NCBI GenBank assembly: GCA_035478295.1
Contig: DATIJU010000014.1
Span: 202,911-266,910, forward strand
DNA: 64,000 nucleotides
Direction of reading: 5' to 3'
Origin: Bacillota bacterium
GTDB lineage: Bacteria > Patescibacteriota > Saccharimonadia > Saccharimonadales > UBA4665
The position numbers were made by a program, and so were the translations under genes. Of the stretch, positions 17,827-42,075 are shown piece by piece. The notes below the pieces were generated by a model. That model saw only the letters and a program-made list of their open reading frames with translations. It made no database searches and was not told the origin of the DNA. Numbering within the stretch: position 1 is the first letter of the stretch; every line of letters begins with the position of its first letter.

Positions 17827-17827
17827 C

Positions 17828-20800: not shown

Positions 20801-23800
20801 ATTCTTACTGAGCACAGCGCCGGTGTTGCCAACACTAAACATAAGCGTACCGAGAGTAGTGTCGTTTGCGGCCGTAGCACGAATGTTCAGCAGGTTGGCG
20901 GCGATGCTGCCGCCATTGCTCGTACTCTGATCCTGGATGTCGAGCGTACCGCGAGTACCGTCAAGAATAATCTCTGAAGTACTGCCACCCGTAGAGTTGG
21001 TATACGCGTTCTGTAAGCTCACGAAACCACCACTGGCCGTAATACAGTCAGACCAAGTGCTGTTCTGGTAACAGCGGAACTTACCACTGTTACTGTTGTA
21101 GTACATAGCACCATTTACACCTGTTGGGTCGCCTGCAGTGTTCTTGGTGTCAAAGACAAGGAGCGTACCGTTCGCGTCGGCTGCACCAATTGTTACATTG
21201 CCGGAGCTTAGAATGCTGGTGCCGGCGGAGCCAGATTGCAACGTCAGAGCGCTCGTGCTGTTTGTGGAACCGATAGTAATCCCCTGCACTGCTGCACCGT
21301 TACCGATGTTAATAGTGTGGGCTGTGGCGCCGTTGCCGATATTGATGCCGCCAGTGTTACCTGCCTCAATAGTGACGCTATTGGCAGCAGTAGTAGCGCT
21401 GCCAATAGTTACAAGACTCGTGGAGCTGGCCGTAGCGTTAGTGCCAAGATTAATCGTCTGCGACACTGCGCCGGTGATGTTACCAATCTGAAGCGTGTTA
21501 GCCACGCCGCCGGTGCCTAAGTTAATACCGCCGGTCCCACCGAGCAAGGACAGTGTGCCGCCATTTGATTTGCCGACAGTGATATTCGAGTTGTTAACCG
21601 TACCAATATTGATAGCGCCGTTAGCCGTTGCACCCGTGCCGCCTTCAATGCTAACCGCACCACCGTTGCGCGTGCCTGATGAGCCGGTAGCGTTACCACC
21701 CTGGATGCTCATAACGCCACCGGCACACGCAGTACCACAAGTGTTGCTTGTAGAGTTGCCGGCGGTGAGCGTGAGTGTAGAGCCTGTGCCGTTTGCAGTG
21801 TTGATGGCTGCGGCTAAGACGTCTGATGTCTGCCCGCCGGGCAATGTGACCGCACCTGCTGCAGACACATTAAAGTTAGTGCTGGCAATCGTCAGGGCCT
21901 GGCTACTGGCTGCAGCGATACTGTTAGTGCTCGCTGCGCTAAAGCTCAGCGCACCCGCCGTGAGCGTAGAGGTACCGCCAATGCGAAGTACGCCCCCCGT
22001 AGACATATTGATGTCGCCGCCAACGTCCAGCTTATAGGCCGGCAATACAGAGCCGCCCAAGGCGATACCTACACGGTTATTGCTTGAGTCGACTGTCAAT
22101 AAATTGTTGCCACCATTGTTGTTTATGTCTATAAAGTCAGTACGGTTGACATTTGGCTGCATGAATATATTGCCGTCAATGCCAAAACCTACCAATATGT
22201 TACCCAGACCGCTATTATTTGAAGCACGCAGACTCAAGAAGTTAGCAGAGCTGCCCAATGAAAAGTCAGCATCCTGAATATCAATACCGGCCTGAATGTT
22301 GTCGAGCTTAATCTCCGGAGTGGACCCGCCAGCGGAGAAGCCGTAAGCAGCTTGCAATGTGCCGTTTATGGAGCCACAGTTACCTATGTCTAAACAAATG
22401 GTACCGGTACTATTAGGCAGATAATAGTTACGGTCGCCAGTCAGAAGACTGTTACCTAAGAAATTACCATAATAACCAGTGGCGTTATCTTCGATGGCCA
22501 CTTTACCACCAATACCCACGGCGCTGTTACCCAGGGCGAGCAAACCGTCATTGGTAATGCGGGCTACCGAGTTGGTGTTTAAGCGCTGAACGTCGATAAC
22601 TACATTGCCGCCGTTGCTGGGGGCAATAGCCACAATCGAAGCCTGCGAAGTCGACGGAGCGTTCACTACCAAGTTGTCATTAACCGTAGCCAGGCTCGTA
22701 TTGCTGTCGATTTGGAACAGCGGGCTGCCATTGGAGTCTTGCACCTGGAAAATATCAGCAGTCTGACCAACAGAAGCCTTGAGGATACCCTCGGTGTGGT
22801 CACCATTGCCCTGGATAAAGAAGTTAGCAACTTGGGCTGAGCCGAATTGGTTAGCAATACAACCACTCGTGGCCAGGTTATTACTACAGACAGTGGCATT
22901 GGCGGTAATTGCAGGCATACTCAGCGTGAAGTTACTTGCATTTGGTGTTGTCGGACCTTGCAGCGTGAGGGTACCACTGCCGCCAGAGCCCTTAAAGATG
23001 ATAGCGCCGGTGTTAGAGGTAGAGGTACCGAGCGTGAGGGCGCTTGCACCCTGTATGGCCACCGTACCCGTAAAGGTAGAGGCCGTATTGATAGTTTGAC
23101 CATTAATTGCGCCGGAAGTGCTCACTGTGCCAATGTTCACCAGGTTGCCACCATTGCTAATACGGTCTGTCGAGTCGGTCTGGATTGTGCCGCCTGTAGT
23201 GTTGATGTTGCCGCTTGCGCTCAGGCTTACGGCGGTGATTGCTCCGGCCGCGGTTACGCTGAAATTGGTGCCACTAATCGCGTGTGCGCCAATTGCCAAA
23301 GCGGTGGTGATGTTTGCGCCTGATGCGTCAAAGGCAGTAGTGATGCCGCCACCAGCTGCTGCCTGTACGGAGACACCAATACCCACCACTTCGTCGGTGT
23401 CGTTGTTCTTAACGAGCACCAACTGGCTGGGAGCCGATGGGTTAGCGCCGTTTGCAAGCGAGAAGACACTGGAGCCAGTAGCACCGGCTGCAGATGTCAC
23501 GGTGAAGTTCTGGGCACTGTTCATGGTAAACGCAATATCGTTACCCGTCGTCGAGATAGTGTTGCCTGCTGCATAGGCTTGCTGCAGCGTTACACTGCTG
23601 GGGTTTGCGTTACAGGTCGACAGTACACCAGCGTTAGAACATACTGCCGTGCTGCTGGCTGCTGCAAACGATCCAACGCTTACAGTGCCTGCCGATGCAA
23701 TATTGCCGCTGCCCGTAGTCGAGATATTACCTGGTGTCGAAACGTTACCACTGGTCAGCGTCACGCCGGTCAGGCCAGTGAGTGCGCCACCGGAAGTTAG

Positions 23801-26800
23801 TGCTGCCGTAGGTGTCTTAATAAAGTTGGTGTAGCCGGTGGCCGAAGCGAAGTTTATGCCGTTGGTTTGGTCGGTACCGCCCAATGCACCGCCGGCAGCC
23901 AGATTAATCACATTAAGCACGTTGGTACCGGAGGATGCTGTAGCCGTGTTGGTGGGCGTCAGGTTAATACCTTGGATAATAACGCCTGCACCGGTGTTGG
24001 TGTTAGCAATGGTAATGTTCTGTGCATTACCTGCTGCCGAATTTGTGTACGCCTGTGAGAGCACGCCTGCGCCGCTCGCCAAAGACAAATTCTTGCCAGC
24101 CGCCACAGTCGTATCGCCATTTACGCTCACATTGCCTGTACCGGTCTTAAAGGTGCCACTGCTAGCCGACTGGTCAAAACCGCCCGAGCCGGATGCATAG
24201 GTTAGATCACCGCCAGTACTTAAGGTGAGCTTAGTGGTGCCACTCGTGCGGAAGTTGAGCGGCTGGCCGTCGTTTGTTCCCAGGTCGGCCGCTGCGCTAA
24301 AGCTGTTGCCACCTTGCACGAAGGCTACACCTGAGCCAGTTGTGCTGCACGTGGCAATCTCGTTAGAGCCATTACGGCACAAGAACGTGGAAGTGTTAGC
24401 CGAACCAAGCGTACCAGCGGTAATAATACCGGAGGTAGACAGCGTACTTACGCCAGATACGGCACCGCCGGCGGTAACATTCAGGCCACTAGAAGCGATT
24501 GCGAGACTACCGGTTCCATTACCGATACTGGTATTTGCAGTACCGGTTGCGTTGATGCTGGCGGCGCCTGTTACCGTAAGGCCGCCAGTTCCCTGCAGTA
24601 GCCCAGCTCCCGAGTTTACACCCACGGCAGTAACAGCGCCCGCGCCACTTACACTAAAGTTTGTACCGGCAATAGCGTTTGCACCAATAGACAATGCGTT
24701 AGTAATGTTGGCGCCAGACGCGTCAAAGGCAGTAGTGATGCCGCCGGCAGCTGCCTGCACCGCTATGCCTGCGGCCAAAACCTCGTTTGTGTCATTGTTC
24801 TTAACTAACACCAATTGTGCTGCAGGCGTAGCGTTGGAGCCATTAGCCAACGAGAAGGTCGTAAAGCCAGTAGCGCCAGCGGCGGTAGTAATTGTAAAGT
24901 TGGCGTTTGTACCACCTGTAGCCAAGGTAAAGTCGATGTTGCGTGCGCTCGTGGTACTAATGGTGTTGCCGGCATTGTATGCGGCTTGCAACGTGGAGCT
25001 TGAACCGCTACCGGTACAGTTACCGCTGCTTAGACAGAAGGTGGCCGATGCACTGCCGGGGTCTGGCAGTATAAAGTCTGTTGCCTGCCCAAGTGCGTTC
25101 GACTTAACAGTACCCAGGAAGCCAGAACCACTGTTTGCAAGTGCAAGCCCGCCGCTTTGCGAGCTGGCAACACCCAGTGTGGCCGTACCGCCCTGAATAA
25201 CCAAATTGCCGGTGGTGCTCACCGTGGTACCATTGTCGCTAATCGTGGAATCACCGATAACACTGCCGGTGCCGCTAAATTTCGCTAAGCGATTTGCAGT
25301 GCCACTACCGGTCACACCGCCGCCAGTGCCTGCACAGTTACCCGTGGTCAAACAAATGGTAGCCGTGGCTCCACCGGGGTCTGGCAAAGTATATACCGTA
25401 TCTTGGCCTAATGAGGCGGTTTGTAGCGTGCCGCTATTGGCTGAACCGTCGCTCAGAACCAAAGCACCGCCCTGCGCCGCCGCGCCAAGCGTAAGTGTAC
25501 CACCCTGGAACGTACCGTTGCCGGCCGACAAAACTGCGCCGCTACTGCCAGTTACACTAAAGTTTGTGCCGCTGATGTCATTGAGGCCAAACAAAAGCGC
25601 GGTAACGATGTTCGGATCGGAAACGTCCAATGCATTTGTGATACCTGCTGCGCCGGCGGCAGTAATTTGAAGACCCTTAGCGACAGCGTTTGTGGCATCC
25701 GCGTTGTCGAGGTGCAGCAATGCTTCAGTAACGCCGCTGCCAGTTGCATTCTGCAACAGCGCCACCTGCTGTGCGCCGCCAGTTGTGTTGTTCGTTAGCA
25801 CACTGCTAATTAGGTTAACTGCGCTAGTGCCGGTGGCAGTATTGGTAAGGCTTAAATTCTGTGAGTTAGCGAGCGCCAACGACACGCTGTTATTAAAAGT
25901 GCTGGTAGCATTAAACGTAGCGACGTCTTGCACCACAAGCTGGTTGGCGCCATCAATAATGACATTGTTACCCGCGCCGCTAGATGCAATAGTTACTGCG
26001 CCTGTGCCAGTTACGTTACCGATATTGGTCAGATTGCCGCTGTTATCAACACGCGTAACACTGTTGGTCTGGAGGCCGCCGCCGATGGTGTTGATGTTGC
26101 CAGAGCCAGTGTAGGTTGTGCCGCCAGAAATCGACCCGCTCAGGGCGATAGTGCCGATATTAGATGCGTTACCCGAATTGTCTATACGGGTAGTGTTGTT
26201 TGTCTGGAGAGCACCACTGATGCTGTTGATGTTACTGGTAGCGGCAAGTGTGCCGGTAGTGCTGGCACCGAGGGCGGTAACGGCAAAGTAAGTCGTGCTG
26301 CCATTGTTGCTCTGGACCTCTAGCAGATTAGCCCCCAGCGATGATGCATTGTCGCGTATCGTCAGCGCCCCGCGGGTGGCGTCCAATACAATTTCCGGAT
26401 CTGTAGAGTTATCGTAAGCACCCTGCAAAGAAACGGCCGTACCACTACAGTTGCCGGTGCTTACACAAATGGTAGCGGTGCCAGCGCCAGGGTCCGGCAG
26501 GGTGTAGACGGTATTTTGACCAAGGGCAGCCGTCTGTACGGTGCCGGTATTAGAGGAGCCGTCGCTCAACACTAGCAGACCAGCCTGTGCAGCGGTACCG
26601 ATAGTAACATTGCCCCCTTGGATCGTTGCGTTACCGCTGGCAGTAATGCTGCCAATATTTATGAGATTGCCGCTGTTATCAACACGCGTAACACTGTTGG
26701 TCTGGAGGCCGCCGCCGGTGGTGTTGATGTTGCCAGAGCCAGTGTAGGTTGTGCCGCCAGAAATTGCGCCGGAGAGTGTGGCGCTACCAATATTAGATAA

Positions 26801-29134
26801 GTTACCCGAGTTATCGATACGCGTAATACTATTTGTCTGGATTGTACCGCCAGTGGTATTTATGTTCCCGGCGCTAGTGGTGGTGCCGCCAACGATAACG
26901 CCGGTGCTCGTTACCGCCAAGTAAGTGCTCGCACCGTTATTGCTCTGTACCTCAAACAAGTTTGCGGCGATTGGTGCCACATTATCACGAATGGTAAGGG
27001 CCCCGCGGGTGGCGTCCAATACAATTTCCGGATCTGTAGAGTTAGTGTATGCCGCCTGCAATGTTACCGCTGCGCCACTACAGTTGCCGGTGCTTACACA
27101 AATGGTAGCAGAACCGGCACCAGGGTCCGGCAAAGTGTAGACGGTATTTTGGCCAAGGGCAGCCGTCTGTACGGTGCCGGTATTGCCATTAGTGCTGTTC
27201 ATAAACACCAAACGGCCATCGAGCGTGCTGCTCTGGCCTAAAATTGCCTGGCCGGTGGTAGTGTTCACGCTCAAGACCCGGTTGCCAGAAGCATTCTGGA
27301 CACTGAATGCAAGTGCCGAGTCACTACTGTTCTGAAAGGTATTGGTAGCGCCAGTAAACGTCTGGGTGGCATTCAGCTTGGCGAGGCTAGCGTCGTTGCT
27401 CAAGTTTGCCGAGGAGATTTGCGCACCGTTTATCCGGTACTGGCTGCCCACGGTCAGATTGAGGTTGCCGTTCACTCCTACTGTTCCGCCGCTTTGGCTC
27501 AGGAGCGAGTCGCCGAGGCTCTGAGCGCCCGTAAATACGGGTAGCGTACCACTCGTTCCAGTCCCGGTAATACTGCTGCCAATGCCAACGCAGTTCCCCG
27601 CGGTGGTACAGATAACATACGTATTAGGGGCTGCCGCACGATCAAAGTTATAGTTTACAGCGCCCGTTGGAGTGCCGGTAAAACCAACCGTTGTTGTGCC
27701 GCCACCCCCGGCCGAGACAATTGTACTGGCTGCATTACCCTGCAGCGTAAAGCTCTGCGCACCCGCACCAACCGTCAAGGCTCCCGAAGGAGTAATTGCG
27801 TTAGTATTCACACCGCTGAAGGTAGGAGTTGAAGTTGAACTAATATTTTGTACAGTGTTCACCGCCCCTGTTGTAACGGTAAAGTTAGTAGAGTTAAAGC
27901 TGGCTATGCCCTTTGCTACTGAGGATGCGTCGTTAATCGTTACCACCGAACCGGCGCCCGTAGAGTTGGCGATGGTAAGCGCACCGCTTAGGCCGTCCAA
28001 CGAAGTTACCGTCGAACCTCCCGTACATGAAGCAAAGGCCGGAGCACCGGCCGTTGAAACTAAACAAAGGCCGGGTCCGGCCGCAGTTACCGTACTTATC
28101 GCCGAAGCTCCGTTGCCCAGCAGCACACCATTGGGCGCAAAGGTGTTTGCTCCGGTGCCGCCGCTCGCAACACCCAATGGGCTCGTTAAATTAACGATAC
28201 CAGAAACATTGAGGTTGCCAGTGACGGTTACTGTCGTGCCACTCTGGCTGATAACCGAGTCGCCAATGGTTTGCGCACCGGTAAATACCGCCAGCTGGCC
28301 TGATATGCCGCCGGCGCTTGACACGGTACCCGTGCCCGCACCAACGCTGCTGATCGTCAGGTTCCCATTGCCGTCGTTGGCGATCTGCAGATTCGCCGTT
28401 CCAGGGGTTAAGCTCAAAACGCCTGCGCTTTGCAAGGTGTTACCGGTCATCTTTAGACCGTCACCGACTGTTATGGCGCCGGTCTGACCGCCAAACGATA
28501 ACACACCACCGTTTGCCAGCTGGTTGCCGACCACGCTCAGCCCCCCGCCAAGTATCACATCTCCACTCACACCACCAATACTTTGCACTACGGCACCTGA
28601 GGCGCTTAACGGCACAAAGGCTGTGCCATTGTAATAGGCTAACTGATTAGTGTTTTGATCGAAGTAAATCTGGCCACTCTTGGGGGCGTTTGGCTGTACA
28701 GAGGGCGAAACTATCAAACCGTCATTGAGCTTCAATGAACCGTTGACAATAACACTACTGGAGCCAAAGTTAACCCCTTGTTCGTTGGCGATAAAGCCGC
28801 TCAGCGGAATCTGCACGGTGTTGTACTGACCGGCGATACTGTTGTTGGCAGTGGTAGTCGGCTTTTTCTGTACATTCGCGATAACTAGCCCGATAAGCCC
28901 GATTACGAGTAGCGCAACCAATATAACATCAGCGCGTTTTAAAGCACGCACGATAACACTCGTCTTCGTCTTAGGGTCAGCAGCAGCTACGGCAGGCGGA
29001 GGTTGTGACAGTATTGTTGGGTCGAGTGACAGTGCTCCCATATTTGCTGGATCTAATCCTGCGCCAAGGTTTGACGCTTGCCCAGCGCCACCACCGTCAT
29101 ACGTAACACCCGTGTTTTGGTCTTGGTTTTCCAC
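17828..29134 (-). CDS. Giant surface fibre/adhesin-like protein 1 (3768 aa), N-terminal signal anchor
   Basis: Uninterrupted 11.3-kb ORF with a GTG start. TM anchor at residues 69-87 (nt 28874..28930). Gly/Thr/Ser/Asn/Ala-rich beta-type repeats. Five Y-x-LPDPG...C-x5-C loops. Two CBM4_9-like modules (~19456..19900 and ~18843..19293; NLVTNSGFENGTSGW, NGITNPSFELNDVGW). LamG/ConA-like C-terminus (TWYHLTVAVNAAGTSADFQVNG). Confidence 0.9.
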   Translation of the reverse strand: MENQDQNTGVTYDGGGAGQASNLGAGLDPANMGALSLDPTILSQPPPAVAAADPKTKTSVIVRALKRADVILVALLVIGLIGLVIANVQKKPTTTANNSIAGQYNTVQIPLSGFIANEQGVNFGSSSVIVNGSLKLNDGLIVSPSVQPNAPKSGQIYFDQNTNQLAYYNGTAFVPLSASGAVVQSIGGVSGDVILGGGLSVVGNQLANGGVLSFGGQTGAITVGDGLKMTGNTLQSAGVLSLTPGTANLQIANDGNGNLTISSVGAGTGTVSSAGGISGQLAVFTGAQTIGDSVISQSGTTVTVTGNLNVSGIVNLTSPLGVASGGTGANTFAPNGVLLGNGASAISTVTAAGPGLCLVSTAGAPAFASCTGGSTVTSLDGLSGALTIANSTGAGSVVTINDASSVAKGIASFNSTNFTVTTGAVNTVQNISSTSTPTFSGVNTNAITPSGALTVGAGAQSFTLQGNAASTIVSAGGGGTTTVGFTGTPTGAVNYNFDRAAAPNTYVICTTAGNCVGIGSSITGTGTSGTLPVFTGAQSLGDSLLSQSGGTVGVNGNLNLTVGSQYRINGAQISSANLSNDASLAKLNATQTFTGATNTFQNSSDSALAFSVQNASGNRVLSVNTTTGQAILGQSSTLDGRLVFMNSTNGNTGTVQTAALGQNTVYTLPDPGAGSATICVSTGNCSGAAVTLQAAYTNSTDPEIVLDATRGALTIRDNVAPIAANLFEVQSNNGASTYLAVTSTGVIVGGTTTSAGNINTTGGTIQTNSITRIDNSGNLSNIGSATLSGAISGGTTYTGSGNINTTGGGLQTNSVTRVDNSGNLINIGSITASGNATIQGGNVTIGTAAQAGLLVLSDGSSNTGTVQTAALGQNTVYTLPDPGAGTATICVSTGNCSGTAVSLQGAYDNSTDPEIVLDATRGALTIRDNASSLGANLLEVQSNNGSTTYFAVTALGASTTGTLAATSNINSISGALQTNNTTRIDNSGNASNIGTIALSGSISGGTTYTGSGNINTIGGGLQTNSVTRVDNSGNLTNIGNVTGTGAVTIASSGAGNNVIIDGANQLVVQDVATFNATSTFNNSVSLALANSQNLSLTNTATGTSAVNLISSVLTNNTTGGAQQVALLQNATGSGVTEALLHLDNADATNAVAKGLQITAAGAAGITNALDVSDPNIVTALLFGLNDISGTNFSVTGSSGAVLSAGNGTFQGGTLTLGAAAQGGALVLSDGSANSGTLQTASLGQDTVYTLPDPGGATATICLTTGNCAGTGGGVTGSGTANRLAKFSGTGSVIGDSTISDNGTTVSTTGNLVIQGGTATLGVASSQSGGLALANSGSGFLGTVKSNALGQATDFILPDPGSASATFCLSSGNCTGSGSSSTLQAAYNAGNTISTTSARNIDFTLATGGTNANFTITTAAGATGFTTFSLANGSNATPAAQLVLVKNNDTNEVLAAGIAVQAAAGGITTAFDASGANITNALSIGANAIAGTNFSVSGAGAVTAVGVNSGAGLLQGTGGLTVTGAASINATGTANTSIGNGTGSLAIASSGLNVTAGGAVSGVSTLSTSGIITAGTLGSANTSTFLCRNGSNEIATCSTTGSGVAFVQGGNSFSAAADLGTNDGQPLNFRTSGTTKLTLSTGGDLTYASGSGGFDQSASSGTFKTGTGNVSVNGDTTVAAGKNLSLASGAGVLSQAYTNSAAGNAQNITIANTNTGAGVIIQGINLTPTNTATASSGTNVLNVINLAAGGALGGTDQTNGINFASATGYTNFIKTPTAALTSGGALTGLTGVTLTSGNVSTPGNISTTGSGNIASAGTVSVGSFAAASSTAVCSNAGVLSTCNANPSSVTLQQAYAAGNTISTTGNDIAFTMNSAQNFTVTSAAGATGSSVFSLANGANPSAPSQLVLVKNNDTDEVVGIGVSVQAAAGGGITTAFDASGANITTALAIGAHAISGTNFSVTAAGAITAVSLSASGNINTTGGTIQTDSTDRISNGGNLVNIGTVSTSGAINGQTINTASTFTGTVAIQGASALTLGTSTSNTGAIIFKGSGGSGTLTLQGPTTPNASNFTLSMPAITANATVCSNNLATSGCIANQFGSAQVANFFIQGNGDHTEGILKASVGQTADIFQVQDSNGSPLFQIDSNTSLATVNDNLVVNAPSTSQASIVAIAPSNGGNVVIDVQRLNTNSVARITNDGLLALGNSAVGIGGKVAIEDNATGYYGNFLGNSLLTGDRNYYLPNSTGTICLDIGNCGSINGTLQAAYGFSAGGSTPEIKLDNIQAGIDIQDADFSLGSSANFLSLRASNNSGLGNILVGFGIDGNIFMQPNVNRTDFIDINNNGGNNLLTVDSSNNRVGIALGGSVLPAYKLDVGGDINMSTGGVLRIGGTSTLTAGALSFSAASTNSIAAASSQALTIASTNFNVSAAGAVTLPGGQTSDVLAAAINTANGTGSTLTLTAGNSTSNTCGTACAGGVMSIQGGNATGSSGTRNGGAVSIEGGTGATANGAINIGTVNNSNITVGKSNGGTLSLLGGTGGINLGTGGVANTLQIGNITGAVSQTINLGTNATASSTSLVTIGSATTAANSVTIEAGNTGGINIGNGATAHTINIGNGAAVQGITIGSTNSTSALTLQSGSAGTSILSSGNVTIGAADANGTLLVFDTKNTAGDPTGVNGAMYYNSNSGKFRCYQNSTWSDCITASGGFVSLQNAYTNSTGGSTSEIILDGTRGTLDIQDQSTSNGGSIAANLLNIRATAANDTTLGTLMFSVGNTGAVLSKNSSNSATAFQIQNALATATVLDVDTTNQRVGIGTAAPARTLDIATNDSNTTAPALRLLQGGTGDATVDLNTTAGSIFLGVDNSDGGSLKLSSNVANGGTITAGFNSTNFPNMDAGNANQVGASQITSGASSGTLNTIRVFFQNPTGSAQVALYADTGSNLPGALLSTSQQQTVVEGWNTFSMPSVAISASTKYWIGFDVSDNNLRYPYFNAGPSAYQNSTFGTMPSPFGTPTNTSGVLSYDVNMVYTTGSTDSFTGNVLSVSSTGVTTFKNATDSTSAFRVQNSSANSILTINTSDSTAGINLVTNSGFENGTSGWAKRGSVPTFISTMQQHHSGNDALYVEGGNAAGDGAKYNITLTTTAAYIITFYARLGPSEAQMFTLAAGYSSDGSTDTTPCSLSTTSLTGTGWTRVECTLTAPGTNSGTPFFYVKQTDASTRDMYFDDFFIALDTSTTTDNNSNGSIDLQGSISSPLLVRGNSNTTDLFNIQTSTSTNVMSVGTLDPTNGITNPSFELNDVGWSPTSNATVGQDSTQAWVGSASLKVTTTANGLAGAAFNTGNTNPTKLIQIQQYTLSWYAKLSSGTFTDIKARYTRNGSSFVECTPSFQTVSTTGWTRFSCTFTTDATAPTASADIRIVQTGATAHTFWIDGVRLEAGAAASSYGAGTLAFDAVINSPVNIRNTANSTGAFNIQNAAGSSMFNVDTLNNQVVVGPSGGDTNGMVLVLGVKTIYTGGAQAGDPTGVAGAMYYNSALGQFRCYEFDHWRDCLESVNTSYHYTNDMTGNAADSSADFDPGVAGAFGSVNGEIGHPGIVTMETNTGGAGSTITTLARTSGSNIIRLGNGDYWRYETALRIRTASGLSGSGQTYTVRAGFNNDGSTGADPTNGCFFKYTDTVNTGKWQGVCTTASTPTTCDTTITVAVDTWYHLTVAVNAAGTSADFQVNGVSKCQVATVPTGSTQQTNWANSLTKNAGTTNRFIDVDYFDVLGQLGTRR
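26020..27180 (-). repeat. In-frame tandem duplication, period 633 nt (211 aa), ~1.8 copies, inside giant gene 1
   Basis: cgcgggtggcgtccaatacaatttccggatctgtagagtta occurs at 26371 and at 27004 (offset 633). ~100-nt near-identical tracts occur at 26041.. and 26671... The protein repeat is TVQTAALGQNTVYTLPDPGAG.ATICVSTGNC...PEIVLDATRGALTIRDN... Confidence 0.75.
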
Positions 29135-29211: not shown

Positions 29212-29262
29212 GCATTTTTTACTACAAAAATACCGTAGCGCCTGTGGATAACTATGTGCACA

Positions 29263-30105
29263 TTATGTCGTCAATATGAGGTATATGACGATAACCGTGA
29301 ACACAAGGATTCCTACCACTGTTAAACCTATTTCCAAAAGGCTCTTATGCACCGCTTCTTCAGAAAGCGGATTACGCCCGATTGAAATAATGCTGGAGCG
29401 AACCGAAGAGTATAACAAAATAGTAACCACCACAAAGAGCATGAGCACCAGCAATGCCGCAATAAGCACCCGCACGGGCGACACATTATGCCCAGCTACA
29501 CTAGCGGCAAAATCTTGTAACATGGGTGGCAAAAATGAATTGTCGTCTTGAGGGGCCTGATAGAACACCTTATCTACCTGAATAGGTATTGCGCCGATGT
29601 GAACTGATAGCTCCTTACCCTTTTTGTTGGTCACCGTGCGCGTCTGCATAATGCTCGCCGACGAAAAATTAGCTTGGGCGGTGCCAATAACAAGAGTGCT
29701 TGTAGTAGCCTTCATACCAATTCCCGATATTGGCGAAGTCGTCACCTTATCGCCGGTCTTAATTGCGCCATTAATGTCGCTCACCAGTACGGTGGTCGAA
29801 CCGTTTGTCACCACCTGCACTGAACCAACACCATTAGTCAGCTCAATAACCGATTTGTTGCCCACAACACCTAGCAAGCGGTCCACATTGTCCTGCGTAC
29901 CCAGCTCCACCGTATTGGGCGTCCCCTGTTTGAGACTTACGAGCGCACCGACAACCACGTTTGGGTCACTACTCTGAAAACCTTGCGCTATGGAGGAGGC
30001 ACCTTGAGCGTTCAGTGAAGACACACCAAGTACCAGGATAGGCACAGCTAAGCCCAACCCAGCGTATCTTATTCTCTGACCGATCGATCGTCGCTTAAGC
30101 AACAT
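29263..30105 (-). CDS. Giant-protein partner protein A1: signal peptide, beta-rich ectodomain, C-terminal helical hairpin
   Basis: 280 aa with an ATG start. Signal peptide (...GVSSLNAQGA). ~170-aa ectodomain (LLGVVGNKSVIELTNGVGSVQVVTNGSTTVLVSDINGAIKTGDKVTTSPISGIGMK). Two C-terminal TM helices joined by RSSIISIGRNPLSEE. It is a clear paralogue of 41147..41983. Confidence 0.8.
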   Translation of the reverse strand: MLLKRRSIGQRIRYAGLGLAVPILVLGVSSLNAQGASSIAQGFQSSDPNVVVGALVSLKQGTPNTVELGTQDNVDRLLGVVGNKSVIELTNGVGSVQVVTNGSTTVLVSDINGAIKTGDKVTTSPISGIGMKATTSTLVIGTAQANFSSASIMQTRTVTNKKGKELSVHIGAIPIQVDKVFYQAPQDDNSFLPPMLQDFAASVAGHNVSPVRVLIAALLVLMLFVVVTILLYSSVRSSIISIGRNPLSEEAVHKSLLEIGLTVVGILVFTVIVIYLILTT

Positions 30106-30134
30106 AGCAGAGCCTTACTGAATTACTGCTTATG

Positions 30135-30140
30135 ATTATA
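30135..30140 (-). promoter_or_regulatory. -10 box TATAAT of partner gene A1
   Basis: The minus strand reads TATAATCATAAGCA. The paralogous gene has TATAATCGTAAGCA at 42000..42013. Confidence 0.4.
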
Positions 30141-33178: not shown

Positions 33179-36100
33179 CTAGAGATCAACTCCGGTGTCG
33201 CCGACGTCCACTCCCTGGTCCACCACCCACATATCAAAGTTACCGGCGTCAGCAAGCCAGGTAGACGTACCTGACCCCAAGGTGCGAATACCGCTAAGGA
33301 GCAAGCTGGCATTTGTCGTATCGGCCGTCGCCGTGAATGCGGTGCCACAAGTCATAGATCGCTGATCCGGTTCTTCAGCATAAATAAGAGCCGTGGACGA
33401 AGTTGTTGCCGTGCCGGATTGGTTCAGACGCAAGCGCATGGCAGTAATATCGGTGTCCACCGTAGAATCAAATCGTGACGGCGAACAATATACGGCGTAG
33501 CGACGGCCATTTACTAATGTCATGTTATCAATGCGGAGTATACCCACTTCAGTACCGGTTATACTTCCCTTATTGGTGGTGCGATTTGCCCGCGCAATGA
33601 TACCGCCGCTTAGACAGTTAACCCAGACGCCATTCTGGTAGCAGCGGAAGGCCTTGGACAAGGCATTATAGTAGATAGCCCCGTTAGTGCCATAGGACGG
33701 GTCAGCGGTGCTAGTATCTTTGGTGTCAAAAACAGCAAGCGTTGGCGTACCACCGCCAAGGCCGGCACCGAATGTTACAAGCGGTCCATTCAGCGTAGGA
33801 TCGCCACGCAGGAAGGTGTATTGCGTGCCGGAACCAAATGCCGTGCCACTCCAGCCAGACCACCACATGCTGCCGGGTCCGGTTCCACCGGCAGACTCTA
33901 TATCTATGCCTGAACCGTCAGTACGGAAGCGTAAGCCTTTAGTTGAGTTGCTTGTACTGTCGGTAAGCAAAAAGCGAGACATAACAGCCTGATTGTTTAC
34001 GGTATCCACTTGGAATGCCGGTACGCCCGCCGCACTAAAGACCTGGAAAGCGCCTGTCGAATTATTGGACGGCTGAACCGTTAGCTGACCGTTAATGGCG
34101 CTGCTACTAAAATCGAGTGTACCCGAGTAGTATGCGCCATTGTCGGTGGTTGACTGCGTAAGCTGCGCATTGTCGATCCAGAAGGTAGCCGGAGAGCTAA
34201 CCGCCGGATTTTCAATGTAGATGTAGGGGCTGCCACTAGGAGCGCCCGCCACAAAAGTACAACTAAAACGCATCCAGCCAGTAGTGTAAAAAGTGGGGTA
34301 ATTACTGACGCAGTCATTTTCGCCGGCGAAAGCCCCTGTATTTGAATAACCCGCGTCTACTGTCGTGCCGCCGCTGGACGATTTGATATAGAACGACAAC
34401 GTATACGACTGGCCGTTAGTAAGCGAAATGGGATATTTAGCCCCTGCATATTGCGGGTTAGTCGTGATCGTTACCTGCATCGAACCCAAACCGGCATAAG
34501 GCGCAGTGGTAACACGCGACAAACTAATAGTACCGGGGTTAACAATCGCCCACGGGGCTGTGGTATTTGTTTCAAAACCGGGATTCGTGAGCAGATTCGT
34601 CTTCGCGACCGTCGACATATTGAATAAAACGTCGTTGGAGCTATTTTGCACCTGCACAGCCGCCGTTGAATTACCGGCAGCAGTGGAGCGGAAGAGTGCA
34701 CCAGCAGAAGTTGAACTGCTGGAGAACGTGAGCGTACCGCCCTGCAGTGTCGTACTGTTGGCCGTGTTATTTGTCGAACCAATAACAACAGATTGTGTAC
34801 CGGTTGCGTTGGTGGTGTTAGCAATATTAACGGTGCTGCTTACTGTCGATGAACCCGTAGCGCCAATATTGGTTGTACCCCCACTCGAACCTAGGCTGAG
34901 TGCGTTTGCCGCCCAATCCGTCTGGAAGTAATTGCGGAAGTTTGTGCCGTCGTAACCATACAGCCACAGATCGGTGTTATTAGCCCGCTTGGAGATTGTA
35001 TACTGAATATTGCTGGCGCTGAGGACGGAACCGCTCTGTATAAATATGCCACTATCCGTACCGCTCTTCGTACTTAAGAACAACGTCGTAACGCCGGTAG
35101 TTGCCGTGCCGACATAGAGGCCGCCCGTACCGCTTGTAGTATCAACCCGCAAGATAGACTGGCCGCCCGAATCCTGTACCTGGAAGGCGTTTGTTGAGTT
35201 AGTGTCACTCTGCGCGATAACACTGCCTGACGAAGAGTTGCTTTGGAGCGTTACGGTGTTGCCCTGTATTGTCGTACTGTTGGCCGTGTTGGACACAGAA
35301 CCAATAGTAACCGCTTGCGTACCGGTGGCGTCGGTAGTGTCCGCAATATGAATCGTCGAACCAGTCGTGGCCGTTCCGATAGAACCAATATTTACGCCGC
35401 CGGTGGTGCCGCTGCGGATGGTGACCGTATTGGCTGCCTTGGCGCTCGAACCGATAGCAACCGTCTGCGTACCCGTAGCGTCGGTGGTATTAGCAATGTT
35501 GACCAGCGAAGCATTGGTAAAGTTGCTCGTAGAACCAATGTTAACGCCGCCAGAAGATCCGCCACGCAGGTTCAGCTGGTTGCTGATATTCGACAGGCTA
35601 CCAATGTTAAGGGTTTGTGTGCCAGTGCCGTCGGTTGTAGATGCGATATTAATTACCGAGCTAAAGGTATCGGTAATCGTGGGGCCTAGGTTTATGGAGC
35701 TACTAGGGCCACTCAGCAAAACTATCTTACTTGTTGTAGTTGTCGAACCGATGGTTACTACTTGAGCCGCAGTACCAGTACCGATGTTTATGCTCCGCGC
35801 CTGGTTGCCGGCGCCGATGTTAATACTGCCAGTGCCGGAGTCAATGCTGACCGATGGGTTAGAGGTGTTGTTGCCGATCTGAAGTGCCTTGGCATTGGTA
35901 CCGCCCAAATTAACGGTTGGCGTACCGCTGCTGGTGCTCCCGGTATCGATGAGTATATCACCCGCCTTGCCAGTCGACGAGTTACCACTCTGAAGGGTCA
36001 TATTGCCGCTTGCGCCTGAAGTATCCTGGCCAAAAAGCGAAATACCGTTTGGCCCAAGCAGCTTCAGCACACCGGTAGTGCGCGTAATGTCGGCAGTGGT

Positions 36101-39100
36101 TGTTGCCGAGCCAAACGAAATGCCGTTCGTAAGCGTACCGCCAAAGAGTATACCCGTACCGAGCGTACCCAGCGATTGCGTAATATTAATACCATTAGTG
36201 AGCGTACCGCCGGTACCATTACGGTTTATCAACAATCCGTTAGTTACGGCTGCCGAGGTGTTTGTGACGTTGATCTGTACCGTGTCACTTGGATTATTGG
36301 TATTGGCCTGATTAAAGATAGCCGCTGCGGCTGTCGTTGCGTTACTTGTAGCGTTGACCGTCAGACCCACCACACCTGCCGCCGTGGGGGTAATAGTGTT
36401 GATTGCTGTAGTGCCGGGTACCTGAATCAGATAGCTGCCCGATGCCTGATACCCAGCACAAACGCTGTTTGTAGTACAAACCGTAGCATTTGCCGTAATT
36501 ACCGGCAGCGAAAGCGTAAAATTACCCACATTCGGAATTGCTGGTCCGGACAAGGTTAATGTTCCGGCACCACCCGAGCCTTTAAGGATAATTGCACCGG
36601 TGCTCGTGTTTGAGACGCCGAGTGTAAGCGCGTTTGATCCTTGGACGGTAAGCGTGCCACCAATGGTGGCATCGTTCGTCACACTCAAAGCCGTACCGCT
36701 GGCGCTAAAGGTAGACGCACCAGTAAAGGTGTTGGCTGTTGCGCCGCTCTGCGTATAGCCACCACTGGTTGTTATACCGGCTACCCCAGTTAATATGCCA
36801 CCGGTAGATATGTTTACACCATTAGAAGTCACCTGGAACGTACCCGTAGCGTTACCTATGGCGGTGTTGGCGGTGCCGGTTGTGTTTAGACTTGTAGCGC
36901 CCGCTACGGTCAATGCGCCGAGCGTACCTACGCCGGTAATATTGCCATACGAACCACTAGAGAGATCAATATTTGCGATGGTGCCGTCAGCGATCTTACC
37001 GCTGGTAACAGCACCCGTCTGAATAGTAGCCACCGCAGCGGAGCTCAGAGCTATGTCGCCGCCGATACTCTGGTTTACCCAAGCCGAACCGTTGTACTGC
37101 AAAATATTACCGCTGGCTACCGAGCTAATAGTAAGTGTGCCTCCCTGAAGCTTGGCGATGGCAGGGTTGGGATAGCTACCGGTGAGGTCACCGCCCGCAC
37201 TGCCGGCAGCAGTACAGTTGCCCGTGCTTAAGCAAATGTTTGCCGTGCCGCCCACGCCAGGATCGGGTAGCGTGTAGGTGCTTGGCTGCCCTAAATTAGC
37301 CACCTGCAAACTGCCTGCGCTCCCGGCTCCGGTCAATACCAGAAGCGGTGTAGTAACACTAGTGCCAAACGTGGGATTATTGACAGTACTCAGTGCACCG
37401 CAGGTACCGCCAGTACCCAGTGTAATGCTCGTGCCACCGCCGGTGAGATTGCCGCTACCGCTTGGACAAGTAAGCGTAACATTGCCTTGGACGGCAGTAT
37501 TCGCCGAGCTACCATATGCAACGCTCAGTGTTGGCGTGCTTCCTTCGCCTGTGTTGCCCGTGGCAGAAAGGCCGGTAAGCGTACCTAATGTAGCAACATA
37601 ATTACCAGTAGTGTCGGTGCCAAGGGCGACCGAGTTAGGCTGAATGGCAGTAACGCCAGTATTCGAAACGCTTACGTCGCCGCTAAAGCTAACAAATGTG
37701 GGCACGCCAGAAGCGTTGGCAATAAGCACTTGGCCGCCCGTACCAGCAGTCGTAACTCCTATAGCGCTCGTCCCATTGCCAAACAAAACACCATTAGCTG
37801 AAAGTGTGTTAGCGCCGGTACCGCCATTACCTACCGACAGCTGCGTGTTAAGTAAGAGATCACCCGCAATGGTAATCGTTGTACCGCTCTGGGTGACAAT
37901 CGAATTACCGATAGATGAAGTACCGGTAAATACCGGGATAGTTCCGCTACTGCCGGTGCCGGTGACTGCACCACCGGCACCGCCGTCATCATCAGCACAG
38001 CTAAGTACTCCGGAGCTATTAGTAGTTAAGGCGCCACCATTTGCGAACGTCGTACAATTTAGCCCGCTAAACGTCACCGTTCCGGACGTTGCAATACCGG
38101 TTGCCGCCGTAATAGCGCCACCGGAGCTAATTTGGAAGGCGTTACTCGTGCCGCTCGCAAATGACGCCGATACGTCCAGGCTGCCAGTTACATTTACACT
38201 ATCCTGCAATTCAATCGTGGTGCCTGCGTCTATGGCTACAATCTGGCCAGCAGCGCTGCTCATAGTAAGCGCCCCGGAGCTTTGCAAAATCGGCGTAGTA
38301 ACACTAGTGCTAAACGTTGGGTTATTAACAGTAGCTATCGTAAAGTTACCATTGGCACCCGCATCGGTAAACGATATGTTGGCACCCGCGCTTAAGGAAC
38401 GTTCATTGCTCAAACTGCCGTGCAATGTAGTTACCAGGTAGGTTGCATCGCTTGGTGCGCCACCACCGCCGCCGCCAATACAATTACCTGTGCTCAAACA
38501 GAAGCTAGCTGGACCGCCGGCATCTGGCAACGTGTATACACGGTCGGCACTTAATCCAGCCGTCACAATCGAAACAGTGTTAGAGGAACCATCGCTAATA
38601 GCAAGCGTCCCCGACTGCGAGAGCGTACCGAATGTGCTCGTGCCGCCTTGCACTACCAAGTTGGCCGTACCATTCACGGTTACCGTTGTGCCGTCGTCGG
38701 AAATAGTCGAATCACCCAGTGCCTGCGCGCCGGTAAATTTGCTGACGCGATCTGTAGTGCCACCACTAGTCGTTACGCCAGTACCACTGCCGGCACAGTT
38801 ACCCGTAGTCAAACAAACAGTTGCCGCGCCTACACCCGGATCGGGTAGCGTGTATATCGTGTCTTGACCAAGAGCTGCGGTCTTCAGCGTACCAATATTA
38901 GATGAACCATCGTTCAAAACAACACTACCTTGCTGAATAGTTGTTCCAATTGTGGCCGTAGCGCCCTGGACGGCCAGTGTTCCAGTAAACGTGGGACTAT
39001 TGGCAACATTAAGCGTCACCGTACCACCAGCCCCCAAAGTAATACTGCCACCTCCCGTTAGATTAGTGCCGGCGCTTACCGAGATGGTAGTGTTGCCCTG

Positions 39101-41096: not shown

Positions 41097-41146
41097 GCGC
41101 TAACTGATCACAATAAGAACTTTTAGCGAAACTGTGGAAAACTCTG

Positions 41147-41983: not shown

Positions 41984-42007
41984 TGGGTCCCCATCTTTAT
42001 GCTTACG

Positions 42008-42013
42008 ATTATA
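42008..42013 (-). promoter_or_regulatory. -10 box TATAAT of partner gene A2
   Basis: The minus strand reads GGGTATAATCGTAAGCA, about 25 nt upstream of the GTG start. Confidence 0.4.
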
Positions 42014-42028
42014 CCCTCAAATATTGAA

Positions 42029-42048
42029 TAAAAAACGAGCAATTGCTC
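42029..42048 (-). terminator. Candidate terminator after the 282-aa anchored-protein gene
   Basis: The minus strand reads GAGCAATTGCTC (self-complementary) followed by GTTTTTTATTC. A second 8-bp hairpin, aactagcc/ggctagtt, lies at 42056..42077. Confidence 0.45.
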
Positions 42049-42075
42049 AGGTACAAACTAGCCTTTTAAGGCTAG

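What the first reader, a model, noticed from the sequence alone, without database searches (positions are those of the whole stretch)
29263..30105. Duplicated ~280-aa partner protein with a conserved R-S-S-I-I-x-I-G-R-N-P-L-S-E hairpin loop
29263..30105 and 41147..41983 are collinear paralogues. Both have a signal peptide and a beta-rich ectodomain with a shared core (GVVG....IEL.NG....VVT.G.T..LVSD.NG..K.GD....SPI.G.GMK). Both end in two C-terminal TM helices joined by the near-identical loop RSSII[SA]IGRNPLSE, with the tail YLILT[TV]. Each sits immediately upstream of a giant gene. Each has its own homologous -10 region (TATAATC[AG]TAAGCA). By eye, the TM, G-R-N-P loop, TM arrangement is reminiscent of the R-Q-P loop hairpin of rotary-ATPase c subunits. 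That resemblance is my pattern recognition only and may be superficial. Inference: the protein is a membrane-embedded base, chaperone or oligomeric collar for the giant fibre.
Basis: partly seen in the sequence, partly recalled or inferred. Interest (0 to 1): 0.7.

Follow-up and report, generated by a model that had tools for sequence, protein, structure and literature searches.

The report
Membrane partner of giant Saccharibacteria fibres
Two paralogous genes encode an uncharacterised Saccharibacteria membrane protein: a phage-decoration-like outer domain on a two-helix hairpin. It is inherited together with tail-fibre-like surface giants, and in related genomes it heads an ATP-synthase operon that has no a or c subunit gene nearby.

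Summary
29263..30105 and 41147..41983 (both on the - strand) are full-length paralogues (51% identity, E 2e-94). Each has an N-terminal signal-like helix, a beta domain and a C-terminal TM hairpin with the loop RSSII[SA]IGRNPLSE. Each has a specific TATAATC[AG]TAAGCA -10 element and lies about 130 nt upstream of a giant gene.

The family is large (4523 clusters at 50% identity), has no curated family or name, and was found only in Saccharimonadia/Patescibacteria. G-R-N-P is invariant. A confident AF2 model (pLDDT 88.8) shows an ectodomain like phage capsid-decoration and head-fibre-base proteins.

Across 81 related copies, 41 are followed directly by a type-II-anchored fibre that shares the giants' N-terminal module. 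Another 12 are followed by b-delta-alpha-gamma-beta-epsilon and then that fibre, and 17 by the ATPase genes alone. No a or c subunit gene lies within 10 kb of any of these operons. Similarity of the hairpin to c subunits is suggestive but not significant, and the ion-binding carboxylate is absent.

Best reading: a cognate membrane socket or anchor for the fibres. Its invariant cytoplasmic loop may dock a divergent F1-type ATPase. The function is untested.

The parts
29263..30105 (-). Partner 1 CDS (280 aa): signal-like helix, phage-decoration-like beta ectodomain, juxtamembrane helix, TM hairpin
   Evidence: ORF and translation; 51% identical paralogue of partner 2; AF2 pLDDT 88.8; at least 791 homologous clusters, all named hypothetical
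30001..30105 (-). Partner 1 residues 1-35: basic N-terminus, hydrophobic helix and LNAQG|A site (predicted Sec signal peptide, or an uncleaved N-terminal TM)
   Evidence: Sequence; helix 6-29 in the AF2 model; conserved A-x-G before the invariant SSIAQGF. Cleavage is inferred.
29551..30000 (-). Partner 1 residues 36-185: beta-rich ectodomain with invariant G79, T100, G113, D119, S124-P125, G128, G130-M131
   Evidence: Alignment A2. Foldseek against PDB: phage BB1 outer-shell decoration 8pkh E 3e-5, Pam3 8hdt_G, T1 9kzj_H, phi29 head fibre 6qvk_1e. BFVD 'preneck appendage protein barrel' E 3e-9. Sub-threshold Pfam PF23982.
29401..29478 (-). Partner 1 TM helix 1 (about residues 210-235)
   Evidence: Hydrophobic stretch VRVLIAALLVLMLFVVVTILLYSSV; AF2 helix 210-244
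29332..29400 (-). Partner 1 cytoplasmic loop region (residues 236-258), RSSIISIGRNPLSEEAVHKSLLE, with invariant G-R-N-P
   Evidence: The positive-inside rule, with the ectodomain outside, places it in the cytoplasm (inference).
29266..29331 (-). Partner 1 TM helix 2 (residues 259-280), ending YLILTT
   Evidence: No conserved acidic residue within the membrane span.
30127..30140 (-). Extended -10 element TATAATCATAAGCA of partner 1
   Evidence: Conserved in 20 of 81 orthologous loci from clades C, D and one from A.
29243..29251 (-). TTATCCACA element 12 nt after the partner 1 stop codon, in the partner-giant spacer
   Evidence: TT[AT]TCCACA(G) lies within 160 nt of the stop codon in 15 of 81 copies, all clade D. 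Background is 109 sites in 1.87 Mb counting both strands.
17828..29134 (-). Giant 1 (3768 aa): cytoplasmic tail, single N-terminal TM (type II anchor), conserved N-module, long fibre, CBM_4_9
41147..41983 (-). Partner 2 CDS (278 aa), paralogue of partner 1
   Evidence: 100% identical to a deposited MAG protein, VLI54_05965.
41216..41284 (-). Partner 2 cytoplasmic loop region (residues 234-256), RSSIIAIGRNPLSEPAVRKSLFQ
42000..42013 (-). Extended -10 element TATAATCGTAAGCA of partner 2, preceded by a terminator-like hairpin at 42036..42049
41133..41141 (-). TTTTCCACA element 6 nt after the partner 2 stop codon
33179..41014 (-). Giant 2 (2611 aa), same N-terminal architecture as giant 1
   Evidence: The N-module is 66% identical to that of giant 1.

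Best explanation
The two genes encode members of a large, unnamed, Saccharimonadia-restricted family of membrane proteins. After Sec export, a phage-decoration or head-fibre-base-like beta domain sits outside the cell. It is held by a C-terminal two-helix hairpin whose short, invariant loop (SIGRNPL) faces the cytoplasm. I propose that the protein oligomerises into a membrane socket or collar for its cognate tail-fibre-like surface protein. That fibre is encoded next door and is anchored by a single N-terminal TM helix followed by a conserved module. The ectodomain would grip that membrane-proximal module, much as related viral domains fasten fibres and cement proteins onto capsids. The hairpin would pack against the fibre's TM helix.

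Shown here: the architecture, the fold similarity, the invariance of the loop, the conserved gene pairing and the joint duplication.

Inferred: oligomerisation, direct contact with the fibre, and the cytoplasmic binding partner of the loop. The best candidate for that partner is the gamma/epsilon foot of the divergent F1-type ATPase, which is encoded between partner and fibre in the sister clade.
For: Both paralogues precede giants that share an N-terminal module. Of 81 related copies, 41 have such a fibre directly downstream and 12 have it after an ATPase block. An independent metagenome sample, taken with a distant query, gives about 36 of 43 loci with partner followed by fibre. The partner tree and the fibre N-module tree resolve the same clades, with Mantel r 0.70 and 0 of 2000 permutations reaching it. 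Duplications always carry partner and fibre together (window, L006, L010; clade B coexists with clade C or D in the same assemblies). The ectodomain resembles phage decoration, head-fibre-base and 'preneck appendage barrel' domains, which in BFVD often sit at the N-terminus of very long fibre-like proteins (weak PF23982). The giants' N-module hits a phage family, phrog_8309. A partner-specific promoter element is conserved across clades, so the partner heads the transcription unit. No terminator lies between partner 1 and giant 1.
Against: No interaction or oligomer was modelled or measured; both structure-prediction jobs went on monomers. Clade A (17 copies) has the ATPase operon but no recognisable N-module fibre within 10 kb. 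The fibres' cytoplasmic tails are low-complexity and poorly conserved, so they cannot explain the invariant cytoplasmic loop. By raw identity, the N-modules of giant 1 and giant 2 are closer to each other (66%) than giant 2 is to its presumed orthologue in L006 (52%), so the paralogue-level co-divergence is not clean. The Mantel correlation is inflated by shared phylogeny.
Confidence: 0.5

Rival explanations
1. The protein is primarily a lineage-specific membrane subunit of the Saccharimonadia F-type ATPase. On this view its hairpin derives from subunit c, with the RNP loop docking gamma/epsilon, and has lost ion binding. It would act as rotor, rotor cap or assembly/anchoring subunit. Adjacency to fibres would be secondary.
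For: In at least 29 loci of the genome sample and 5 of the metagenome sample, the gene lies immediately upstream of an atpF-like gene. The next ORF opens -7 to +16 nt from the partner's stop codon. That gene is followed by delta, alpha, gamma, beta and epsilon, which is the canonical position of atpE. No c subunit (and the c HMM) and no a subunit lies within 10 kb of any of 34 such operons. The topology and R-N-P loop are as in c subunits. The second-best hit of a hairpin profile in all PDB sequences is the Chloroflexus aurantiacus c subunit, collinear, with loop AIGRNPE. Foldseek retrieves c subunits as the only TM-hairpin family (9itt_I: target-normalised TM-score 0.81, rmsd 1.7 A, 21% identity). 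The invariant cytoplasmic loop needs a conserved cytoplasmic ligand.
Against: None of the similarity scores is significant: hhalign probability 3.6%, E 0.98, E 1.4-2.8, and Pfam ATP-synt_C in 1 of 53 hairpins at E 0.012. There is no conserved carboxylate in TM2 and no glycine packing motif in TM1. In the window itself, and throughout clades B and D, the gene is not next to ATPase genes. Paralogues multiply with fibres, not with ATPase genes. Split atp operons are common, so a and c may simply be encoded elsewhere. Published surveys report complete or nearly complete F-ATPases in Saccharimonadia (PMC12592800; 10.1101/2022.02.13.480300), and Southlakia has a canonical AtpZ-a-c-b-delta... operon (PMC10633639 supplement).
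Confidence: 0.22
2. The protein is an autonomous surface protein, such as an adhesin, a receptor or an envelope organiser. Its gene would be co-located with fibre, pilus and ATPase genes only because these are co-regulated envelope genes, with no physical complex.
For: The same neighbourhood also holds pam-pilus-like secreted proteins and other fibre-like genes (Troman et al., bioRxiv 10.64898/2026.03.03.709456). The downstream content differs between clades A to D. Putative separate promoters precede the giants.
Against: Tight, same-strand, first-gene position, with overlapping stop and start codons in the ATPase clades. Joint duplication with the fibre, and congruent trees. An invariant cytoplasmic loop is hard to explain for a purely extracellular function.
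Confidence: 0.15
3. The protein is a domesticated or resident prophage protein, such as a decoration or minor capsid protein or a superinfection-exclusion factor, unrelated to host physiology.
For: The ectodomain fold and the weak PF23982 hit are viral.
Against: No PHROG hit. The window context is housekeeping chromosome: parAB, signal peptidase, tRNA synthetases, RF-1 and RNR. Relatives occur in 262 species genomes at conserved chromosomal positions. The signal peptide and TM hairpin are foreign to capsid proteins.
Confidence: 0.03

Closest known systems
Phage capsid decoration, cement and head-fibre-base proteins (Pfam PF23982 XM1_gp53 minor capsid; Borrelia phage BB1 outer shell 8pkh; cyanophage Pam3 8hdt chain G; T1 9kzj chain H; phi29 gp8.5 6qvk)
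   Same: The fold of the roughly 150-residue beta ectodomain matches (Foldseek probability 1.0, E 3e-5 against PDB and 3e-9 against BFVD). In viruses this module fastens fibres or cement proteins to a surface, and it is often the N-terminal part of very long fibre-like proteins.
   Different: Here it is cellular, carries a signal peptide, is fused to a two-helix membrane hairpin, and is encoded separately from the fibre. The Pfam score is below the gathering threshold for the window proteins (20.6 against 27 bits). No PHROG hit.
F-type ATP synthase subunit c (Pfam PF00137), especially R-N-P-loop forms such as Chloroflexus aurantiacus (AIGRNPE) and mitochondrial (ARNPS)
   Same: Helical hairpin of the same length and topology, with an R-N-P turn facing the cytoplasm. 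Orthologues occupy the gene position directly upstream of the b-subunit gene. c subunits are the best TM-hairpin structural matches.
   Different: No significant sequence or profile similarity. No ion-binding Glu/Asp in helix 2, and no GxGxGxG in helix 1. A roughly 200-residue extracellular domain precedes the hairpin. No subunit a gene is nearby.
Mycoplasma F1-like ATPases coupled to surface machinery: M. mobile gliding motor MMOB1660/1670 with giant leg proteins, and MSC_0618/0619 type clusters (PMC8406192, PMC11864180)
   Same: In sister clades the partner and the giant fibre flank an F1-type alpha/beta/gamma set that lacks Fo a and c genes in the cluster. All of its subunits score below the NCBIfam equivalog cut-offs, and alpha and beta also match the Mycoplasma F1-like models. 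The cells are tiny, host-dependent and carry giant surface proteins.
   Different: The Saccharimonadia set keeps b, delta (OSCP) and epsilon, and is still closest to true F1 (beta 449 against a cut-off of 463 bits). Whether it is a second, specialised ATPase or the cell's only one is unknown. No functional link is shown. The window itself carries no ATPase genes.
pam pilus neighbourhood of Ca. Mycosynbacter amalyticus (Troman et al. 2026, bioRxiv 10.64898/2026.03.03.709456)
   Same: [quoted passage not shown] Clade A loci here show ATPase genes followed by secreted beta-rich proteins.
   Different: The parts of that preprint I read (section 8 in full and keyword passages from other sections) do not describe this 280-aa protein. 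The Pam chaperones have one C-terminal TM helix and Ig-like folds, not this architecture.

Membership tests
ATP synthase subunit c (PF00137) | Two-TM helical hairpin with both termini outside and a polar loop in the cytoplasm | tested here: met
   AF2 helices 210-244 and 246-279, pLDDT about 90. The ectodomain with its signal peptide places the N-side outside. The loop carries R236, R244 and K254.
ATP synthase subunit c (PF00137) | Loop motif R-(Q/N)-P | tested here: met
   G-R-N-P is invariant in A2 (105 sequences) and A3 (53 hairpins at 62% identity or less); G[RK]NP is present in 424 of 427 homologues.
ATP synthase subunit c (PF00137) | Conserved ion-binding Glu/Asp in the middle of helix 2 | tested here: not met
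   Helix 2 has no conserved acidic residue. The only frequent E/Q/D position (LL[EQD]VG) lies at the cytoplasmic boundary and is variable.
ATP synthase subunit c (PF00137) | Glycine-rich packing motif (GxGxGxG) in helix 1 | tested here: not met
   Helix 1 is bulky and aliphatic (VRVLIAALLVLMLFVVVTILLY); there is no conserved Gly motif.
ATP synthase subunit c (PF00137) | Significant sequence or profile similarity to the family | tested here: not met
   Pfam: no hit for the window hairpin at E<=1, and 1 of 53 hairpins at E 0.012. hhalign probability 3.6%. PDB profile search: c subunit 9itj_H at E 0.98. A local c-subunit HMM does not hit partners.
ATP synthase subunit c (PF00137) | Structural superposition on c subunits | tested here: inconclusive
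   c subunits are the only TM-hairpin family retrieved (9itt_I: target-normalised TM-score 0.81, rmsd 1.7 A, probability 0.91), but E is 1.4-2.8, as expected for any short helical hairpin.
ATP synthase subunit c (PF00137) | Gene lies between atpB and atpF in an atp operon | tested here: inconclusive
   It lies directly upstream of an atpF-like gene in 34 related loci, but no atpB is present. In the window it is not in an atp operon at all.
Phage decoration / minor capsid (PF23982-like) | Score above the Pfam gathering threshold | tested here: not met
   Partner 1 scores 20.6 bits against a cut-off of 27; partner 2 has no hit. A few homologues carry precomputed PF23982 hits.
Phage decoration / minor capsid (PF23982-like) | Shared fold of the beta domain | tested here: met
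   Foldseek probability 1.0 to 8pkh, 8hdt_G, 9kzj_H and 6qvk_1e, and to 50 BFVD models at E<=1e-3.
Phage decoration / minor capsid (PF23982-like) | Virion component encoded in a phage or prophage | tested here: not met
   Housekeeping chromosomal context; conserved cellular synteny in 262 species genomes; no PHROG hit.
   No such hit in Pfam or NCBIfam at E<=0.1. The architecture is also reversed: here the beta domain is N-terminal and extracellular.
F1-like ATPase surface machines (Mycoplasma type) | An alpha/beta/gamma cluster without Fo a/c, alongside a separate canonical F1Fo in the same genome | not testable with these tools
   Absence of a and c within 10 kb is shown. Whole genomes could not be read, so the presence of a second, canonical operon is unknown.
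F1-like ATPase surface machines (Mycoplasma type) | Physical or functional coupling of the ATPase to giant surface proteins | not testable with these tools
   Only synteny is available: partner-b-delta-alpha-gamma-beta-epsilon-giant on one strand with minimal spacers in 12 loci.

The most novel reading that the evidence does not exclude
Partner, fibre and the a/c-less, divergent F1-type ATPase (b-delta-alpha-gamma-beta-epsilon) form one envelope machine. In it, a ring or cluster of c-like hairpins carries phage-type fibre sockets on the outside. This ring replaces the proton-conducting Fo and couples ATP hydrolysis in the cytoplasm to assembly, tensioning or movement of giant host-contacting fibres. 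That would be a second, independent conversion of a rotary ATPase into a surface motor, after the Mycoplasma mobile gliding apparatus. It would also bear on why ATP synthase is retained in fermentative epibionts.
Probability: 0.15. Interest if true: 0.92.

Novelty: categorically new. Interest (0 to 1): 0.72.

Why it matters
Saccharibacteria and other Patescibacteria live attached to host bacteria. Their giant surface proteins are prime candidates for host contact, yet how such fibres are anchored and assembled in a wall-bearing, outer-membrane-less cell is unknown. This work identifies a conserved, fibre-specific membrane partner built from a viral fibre-attachment fold.

It also shows that the same gene heads an ATP-synthase operon lacking a and c genes in many relatives. 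That turns two open questions into concrete experiments. The first is what the giant genes need in order to function. The second is why fermentative epibionts keep an ATP synthase that was found dispensable for growth on the host in Southlakia, although that organism carries a canonical operon rather than the partner-headed one.

The family is large (thousands of clusters at 50% identity) and has no curated model, so defining it would improve the annotation of a major branch of microbial dark matter.

Tried and rejected
- **Pfam, NCBIfam and PHROGs on both proteins.** No family above threshold.
- **Profile search of the full-length family against PDB sequences.** Nothing found.
- **First AF2 run with 29 sequences.** The ectodomain was unusable (pLDDT 62). 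I reused this model only to expose the hairpin to Foldseek.
- **Hairpin versus c subunits.** None was significant, so I do not file the protein as a c subunit.
- **Search for a and c subunit genes around 34 partner-linked ATPase operons.** The c HMM found nothing. All ORFs with four or more hydrophobic segments were listed, and the plausible ones turned out to be ZIP, MFS, CarS or antisense artefacts.
- **Iterated fibre N-module profile.** It drifted into fibre repeats by iteration 4, so I used the iteration-3 table.
- **Raw-identity test of paralogue co-divergence.** The result was ambiguous, possibly because of concerted evolution of the two giants' N-modules.
- **Literature searches for missing a or c subunits in Saccharimonadia.** No statement either way.
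- **Rejected readings.** Lipoprotein: the LLGC in partner 2 is not conserved. NfeD-like: no hit. Prophage gene: the context is housekeeping.
Full report
**1. Observation**

The window holds two ORFs on the minus strand at the stated coordinates: 29263..30105 (280 aa, ATG) and 41147..41983 (278 aa, GTG). BLASTP aligns them end to end at 51% identity and 70% positives, E 2e-94.

Both begin with a basic stretch and a hydrophobic helix followed by a conserved A-x-G and then SSIAQGF. They continue with a beta-rich region that carries the quoted motifs. They end in two hydrophobic helices joined by RSSII[SA]IGRNPLSE, with the tail YLILT[TV].

Each lies about 130 nt upstream of a giant ORF on the same strand: 17828..29134 (3768 aa) and 33179..41014 (2611 aa).

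The 14-mer TATAATC[AG]TAAGCA occurs only at 30127..30140 and 42000..42013, against 0.03 expected by chance. The first site is part of a 10-of-12 sigma-70-like match.

**2. Organism and family**

The surrounding genes are housekeeping: ParA, ParB, signal peptidase I, three aminoacyl-tRNA synthetases, RF-1, HtrA-like and RseP-like proteases, an LCP protein and ribonucleotide reductase.

Partner 2 is 100% identical to a protein of a deposited MAG labelled 'Bacillota bacterium'. All relatives, however, come from Saccharimonadales, Saccharibacteria or Patescibacteria assemblies.

The family is large. Word-indexed searches return 791, 468 and 1697 clusters. An exhaustive profile search returns 4523 representatives at 50% identity with E<=1e-3, 524 of them at E<=1e-30.

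Every source name is 'hypothetical' or 'membrane protein of unknown function'. No Pfam, NCBIfam or PHROG model reaches threshold. The only hint is a sub-threshold match to PF23982 (XM1 gp53 minor capsid protein), which a few homologues also carry as precomputed hits.

In a 105-sequence alignment reaching 34% identity, two blocks of positions are invariant:
- an ectodomain set: G79, T100, G113, D119, S124-P125, G128, G130-M131;
- S238 and G243-R244-N245-P246 in the loop.

G[RK]NP is present in 424 of 427 collected homologues.

**3. Structure**

AF2 with 29 sequences failed on the ectodomain (pLDDT 62). With 105 sequences the model is confident (pLDDT 88.8, pTM 0.63). It shows:
- helix 6-29;
- a beta domain at 39-182;
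- a short juxtamembrane helix at 194-204;
- a hairpin of two roughly 35-residue helices that turns at GRNP.

Foldseek places the beta domain with phage capsid decoration, cement and head-fibre-base proteins. The PDB matches are Borrelia phage BB1 outer shell 8pkh (E 3e-5), cyanophage Pam3 8hdt_G, T1 9kzj_H and the phi29 head fibre 6qvk_1e.

In BFVD there are 50 matches at E<=1e-3. The best is annotated 'preneck appendage protein' (E 3e-9). Many are the N-terminal part of proteins of 400-1500 aa annotated as tail, collar or collagen-like.

My own knowledge is that phi29 gp8.5 and lambda-type decoration proteins are trimers that seat on capsid three-fold positions. I use this only as a lead for oligomerisation.

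**4. Genomic context elsewhere**

A pattern scan of 185,579 species genomes found relatives in 262; 78 loci were fetched. I identified 81 full-length copies with a family HMM and classified what lies downstream:

| Downstream content | Copies |
|---|---|
| Fibre with the giants' N-terminal TM and module, directly downstream (sizes 172 to more than 3300 aa, the smallest cut by contig ends) | 41 |
| ATPase block, then such a fibre | 12 |
| ATPase block only | 17 |
| Other | 6 |
| Not assessable | 5 |

The ATPase block was verified by Pfam on L073. In order, it contains:
- a 203-aa protein with one N-terminal TM helix and a long coiled coil (b-like);
- OSCP/delta;
- alpha;
- gamma;
- beta;
- an 88-aa epsilon.

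The b-like ORF opens -7 to +16 nt from the partner's stop codon in most of these loci.

A second, independent sample came from metagenome contigs, using a distant four-sequence query. It gave about 36 of 43 loci of at least 4 kb with partner followed by fibre, and 5 with partner followed by b-delta-alpha-gamma-beta-epsilon.

**5. Evolution of the module**

An NJ tree of the 81 partners resolves four clades:
- A: ATPase only;
- B: short fibres of 600-850 aa;
- C: ATPase then giant;
- D: giant directly downstream. This clade contains both window copies, in separate subclades.

C and D are sisters. The same assembly often holds one C or D copy plus one B copy, but never C plus D in this sample. 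Clade D therefore looks like the orthologue of C with the six ATPase genes removed from between partner and giant.

The tree of fibre N-modules recovers the same groupings. Partner and fibre distances correlate (Mantel r 0.70; 0 of 2000 permutations). Shared phylogeny contributes to this. At the level of raw identity the two window giants' N-modules are closer to each other than expected (66%), perhaps through concerted evolution.

The partner-specific element TATAATC[AG]TAAG is conserved upstream of the gene in 20 of 81 loci from clades C, D and one from A. The partner therefore heads the transcription unit whatever follows it.

**6. The c-subunit question**

- Pfam finds no ATP-synt_C in the window hairpins, and finds it in only 1 of 53 diverse hairpins at E 0.012.
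- hhalign against a small c-subunit alignment gives 3.6% probability, although it does align the loops in register.
- Helix 2 has no conserved acidic residue, and helix 1 has no glycine motif.

Three things nevertheless point the same way:
- A hairpin profile searched against all PDB sequences returns as its second hit the Chloroflexus aurantiacus c subunit. The alignment is collinear over 63 residues with loop AIGRNPE, at E 0.98.
- Foldseek was run on the model in which only the hairpin is folded. It retrieves c subunits (Chloroflexus, chloroplast, Polytomella, Acetobacterium) and no other TM-hairpin family. The best is 9itt_I: target-normalised TM-score 0.81, rmsd 1.7 A, 21% identity, E 1.6.
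- In clades A and C the gene sits precisely where atpE sits.

No canonical c subunit was found in roughly 1.9 Mb of fetched loci, and no a subunit within 10 kb of 34 ATPase-type loci.

The linked ATPase is divergent. Every subunit scores below its NCBIfam equivalog cut-off: alpha 400 against 554, beta 449 against 463, gamma 73 against 194, delta 23 against 57, epsilon 42 against 67, and b not recognised. Alpha and beta also match the Mycoplasma F1-like models. Beta is still most similar to true F1 beta in the PDB.

By contrast, cultivated Southlakia has a canonical AtpZ-a-c-b-delta-alpha-gamma-beta-epsilon operon. Its gamma matches Pfam at 3.5e-82, and the operon is dispensable for growth on the host (PMC10633639 and its supplement).

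Published surveys describe Saccharimonadia F-ATPases as complete or nearly complete (10.1101/2022.02.13.480300, PMC12592800). Unlinked a and c genes therefore remain the conservative expectation. I could not read whole genomes to settle this.

**7. Interpretation**

The strongest and most general signal is the cognate pairing of this protein with a type-II-anchored, tail-fibre-like protein. The two are adjacent, are duplicated together and diverge together. The partner's outer domain belongs to a viral fold whose job is to fasten fibres and cement proteins onto a surface.

I therefore favour a membrane socket or anchor for the fibre (confidence 0.5).

That model does not explain the invariant cytoplasmic loop, because the fibres' cytoplasmic tails are poorly conserved. 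A conserved cytoplasmic ligand is needed.

The synteny partner-b-delta-alpha-gamma-beta-epsilon-fibre, on one strand with minimal spacers, makes the gamma/epsilon foot of that ATPase the obvious candidate.

This leads to two further readings. The rival is that the protein is mainly an ATPase subunit (0.22). The most novel is that it belongs to an ATP-driven fibre machine (0.15), for which the Mycoplasma mobile gliding motor is the precedent (PMC8406192, PMC11864180).

Troman et al. [quoted passage not shown] The passages I read do not describe this protein.

**8. Verdict**

This is a real, strongly conserved and uncharacterised family. Its architecture and gene context have no described counterpart that I could find.

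The c-subunit resemblance is unproven, but it can no longer be dismissed as superficial.

Interest is 0.72.

Noticed in passing
window 29243..29251 (-) and 41133..41141 (-); also L002, L004, L006-L008, L010-L013, L015, L038: A DnaA-box-like element TT[AT]TCCACA(G) sits a few nucleotides after the partner stop codon, in the partner-giant spacer. It is present in 15 of 81 copies, all clade D, against a background of 109 sites in 1.87 Mb counting both strands. It lies upstream of the promoter-like sites of the giants. parAB lie between the two modules in the window.
   Followed up: partly
L073 10848..15931; L016 10751..15678; L126, L132, L148, L150, L154: The partner-linked ATP synthase operons (b-delta-alpha-gamma-beta-epsilon) have no a or c gene within 10 kb. 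Epsilon is truncated to about 88 aa (beta-sandwich only). All subunits score below the NCBIfam equivalog cut-offs, and alpha and beta also match the Mycoplasma F1-like ATPase models.
   Followed up: partly
window 42966..47585 (-) and 47657..57079 (-): Two further large ORFs (1539 and 3140 aa) lie upstream of partner 2 on the same strand. Homologues lie in the same relative position upstream of the partner in L001, L005 and L035, so the whole array of giants is syntenic. Neither carries the fibre N-module.
   Followed up: partly
window 42076..42939 (-): A 287-aa ORF lies between the 1539-aa giant and partner 2. It has a basic N-terminus, one TM helix and no Pfam or NCBIfam hit. It is followed by a terminator-like hairpin at 42036..42049.
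   Followed up: no
window 41147..41983 / protein P0121: The identical deposited protein (VLI54_05965) is labelled 'Bacillota bacterium'. Several related MAG contigs are labelled Magnetospirillaceae, Pristimantibacillus, Nanoarchaeia or Woesebacteria, although all close relatives are Saccharimonadales. These are probably taxonomic mislabels or bin contamination.
   Followed up: no
L073 15989..17035 (-), 17124..20352 (+): Directly after epsilon in clade A loci lies a convergent 348-aa type-II-anchored, fibre-like protein, not detectably homologous to the giants' N-module. Three secreted beta-rich proteins (257, 378 and 380 aa) follow it. These may correspond to the pam pilus operon described by Troman et al.
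   Followed up: partly
L132 2..2797 (+); L108 490..1341 (+): In L132 a 932-aa ORF that also matches the partner HMM precedes the regular partner gene. In L108 the partner is split into two ORFs (139 and 144 aa), which suggests a frameshift or pseudogene.
   Followed up: no
window 27035..29134 (-) and 38915..41014 (-), giant residues about 140-189: The motif SVQPNA..GQ.Y[FY]DQNTNQLAYYNG in both giants matches phage family phrog_8309 (unknown function, E 2e-6 to 4e-6). The fibre's membrane-proximal module therefore also has viral relatives.
   Followed up: no
L005 about 10840..10970: In one orthologous locus a long inverted repeat (GTCTTGCTAACCAAG...CTTGGTTAGCAAGAC) is inserted between the partner stop codon and the TTATCCACA element.
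   Followed up: no
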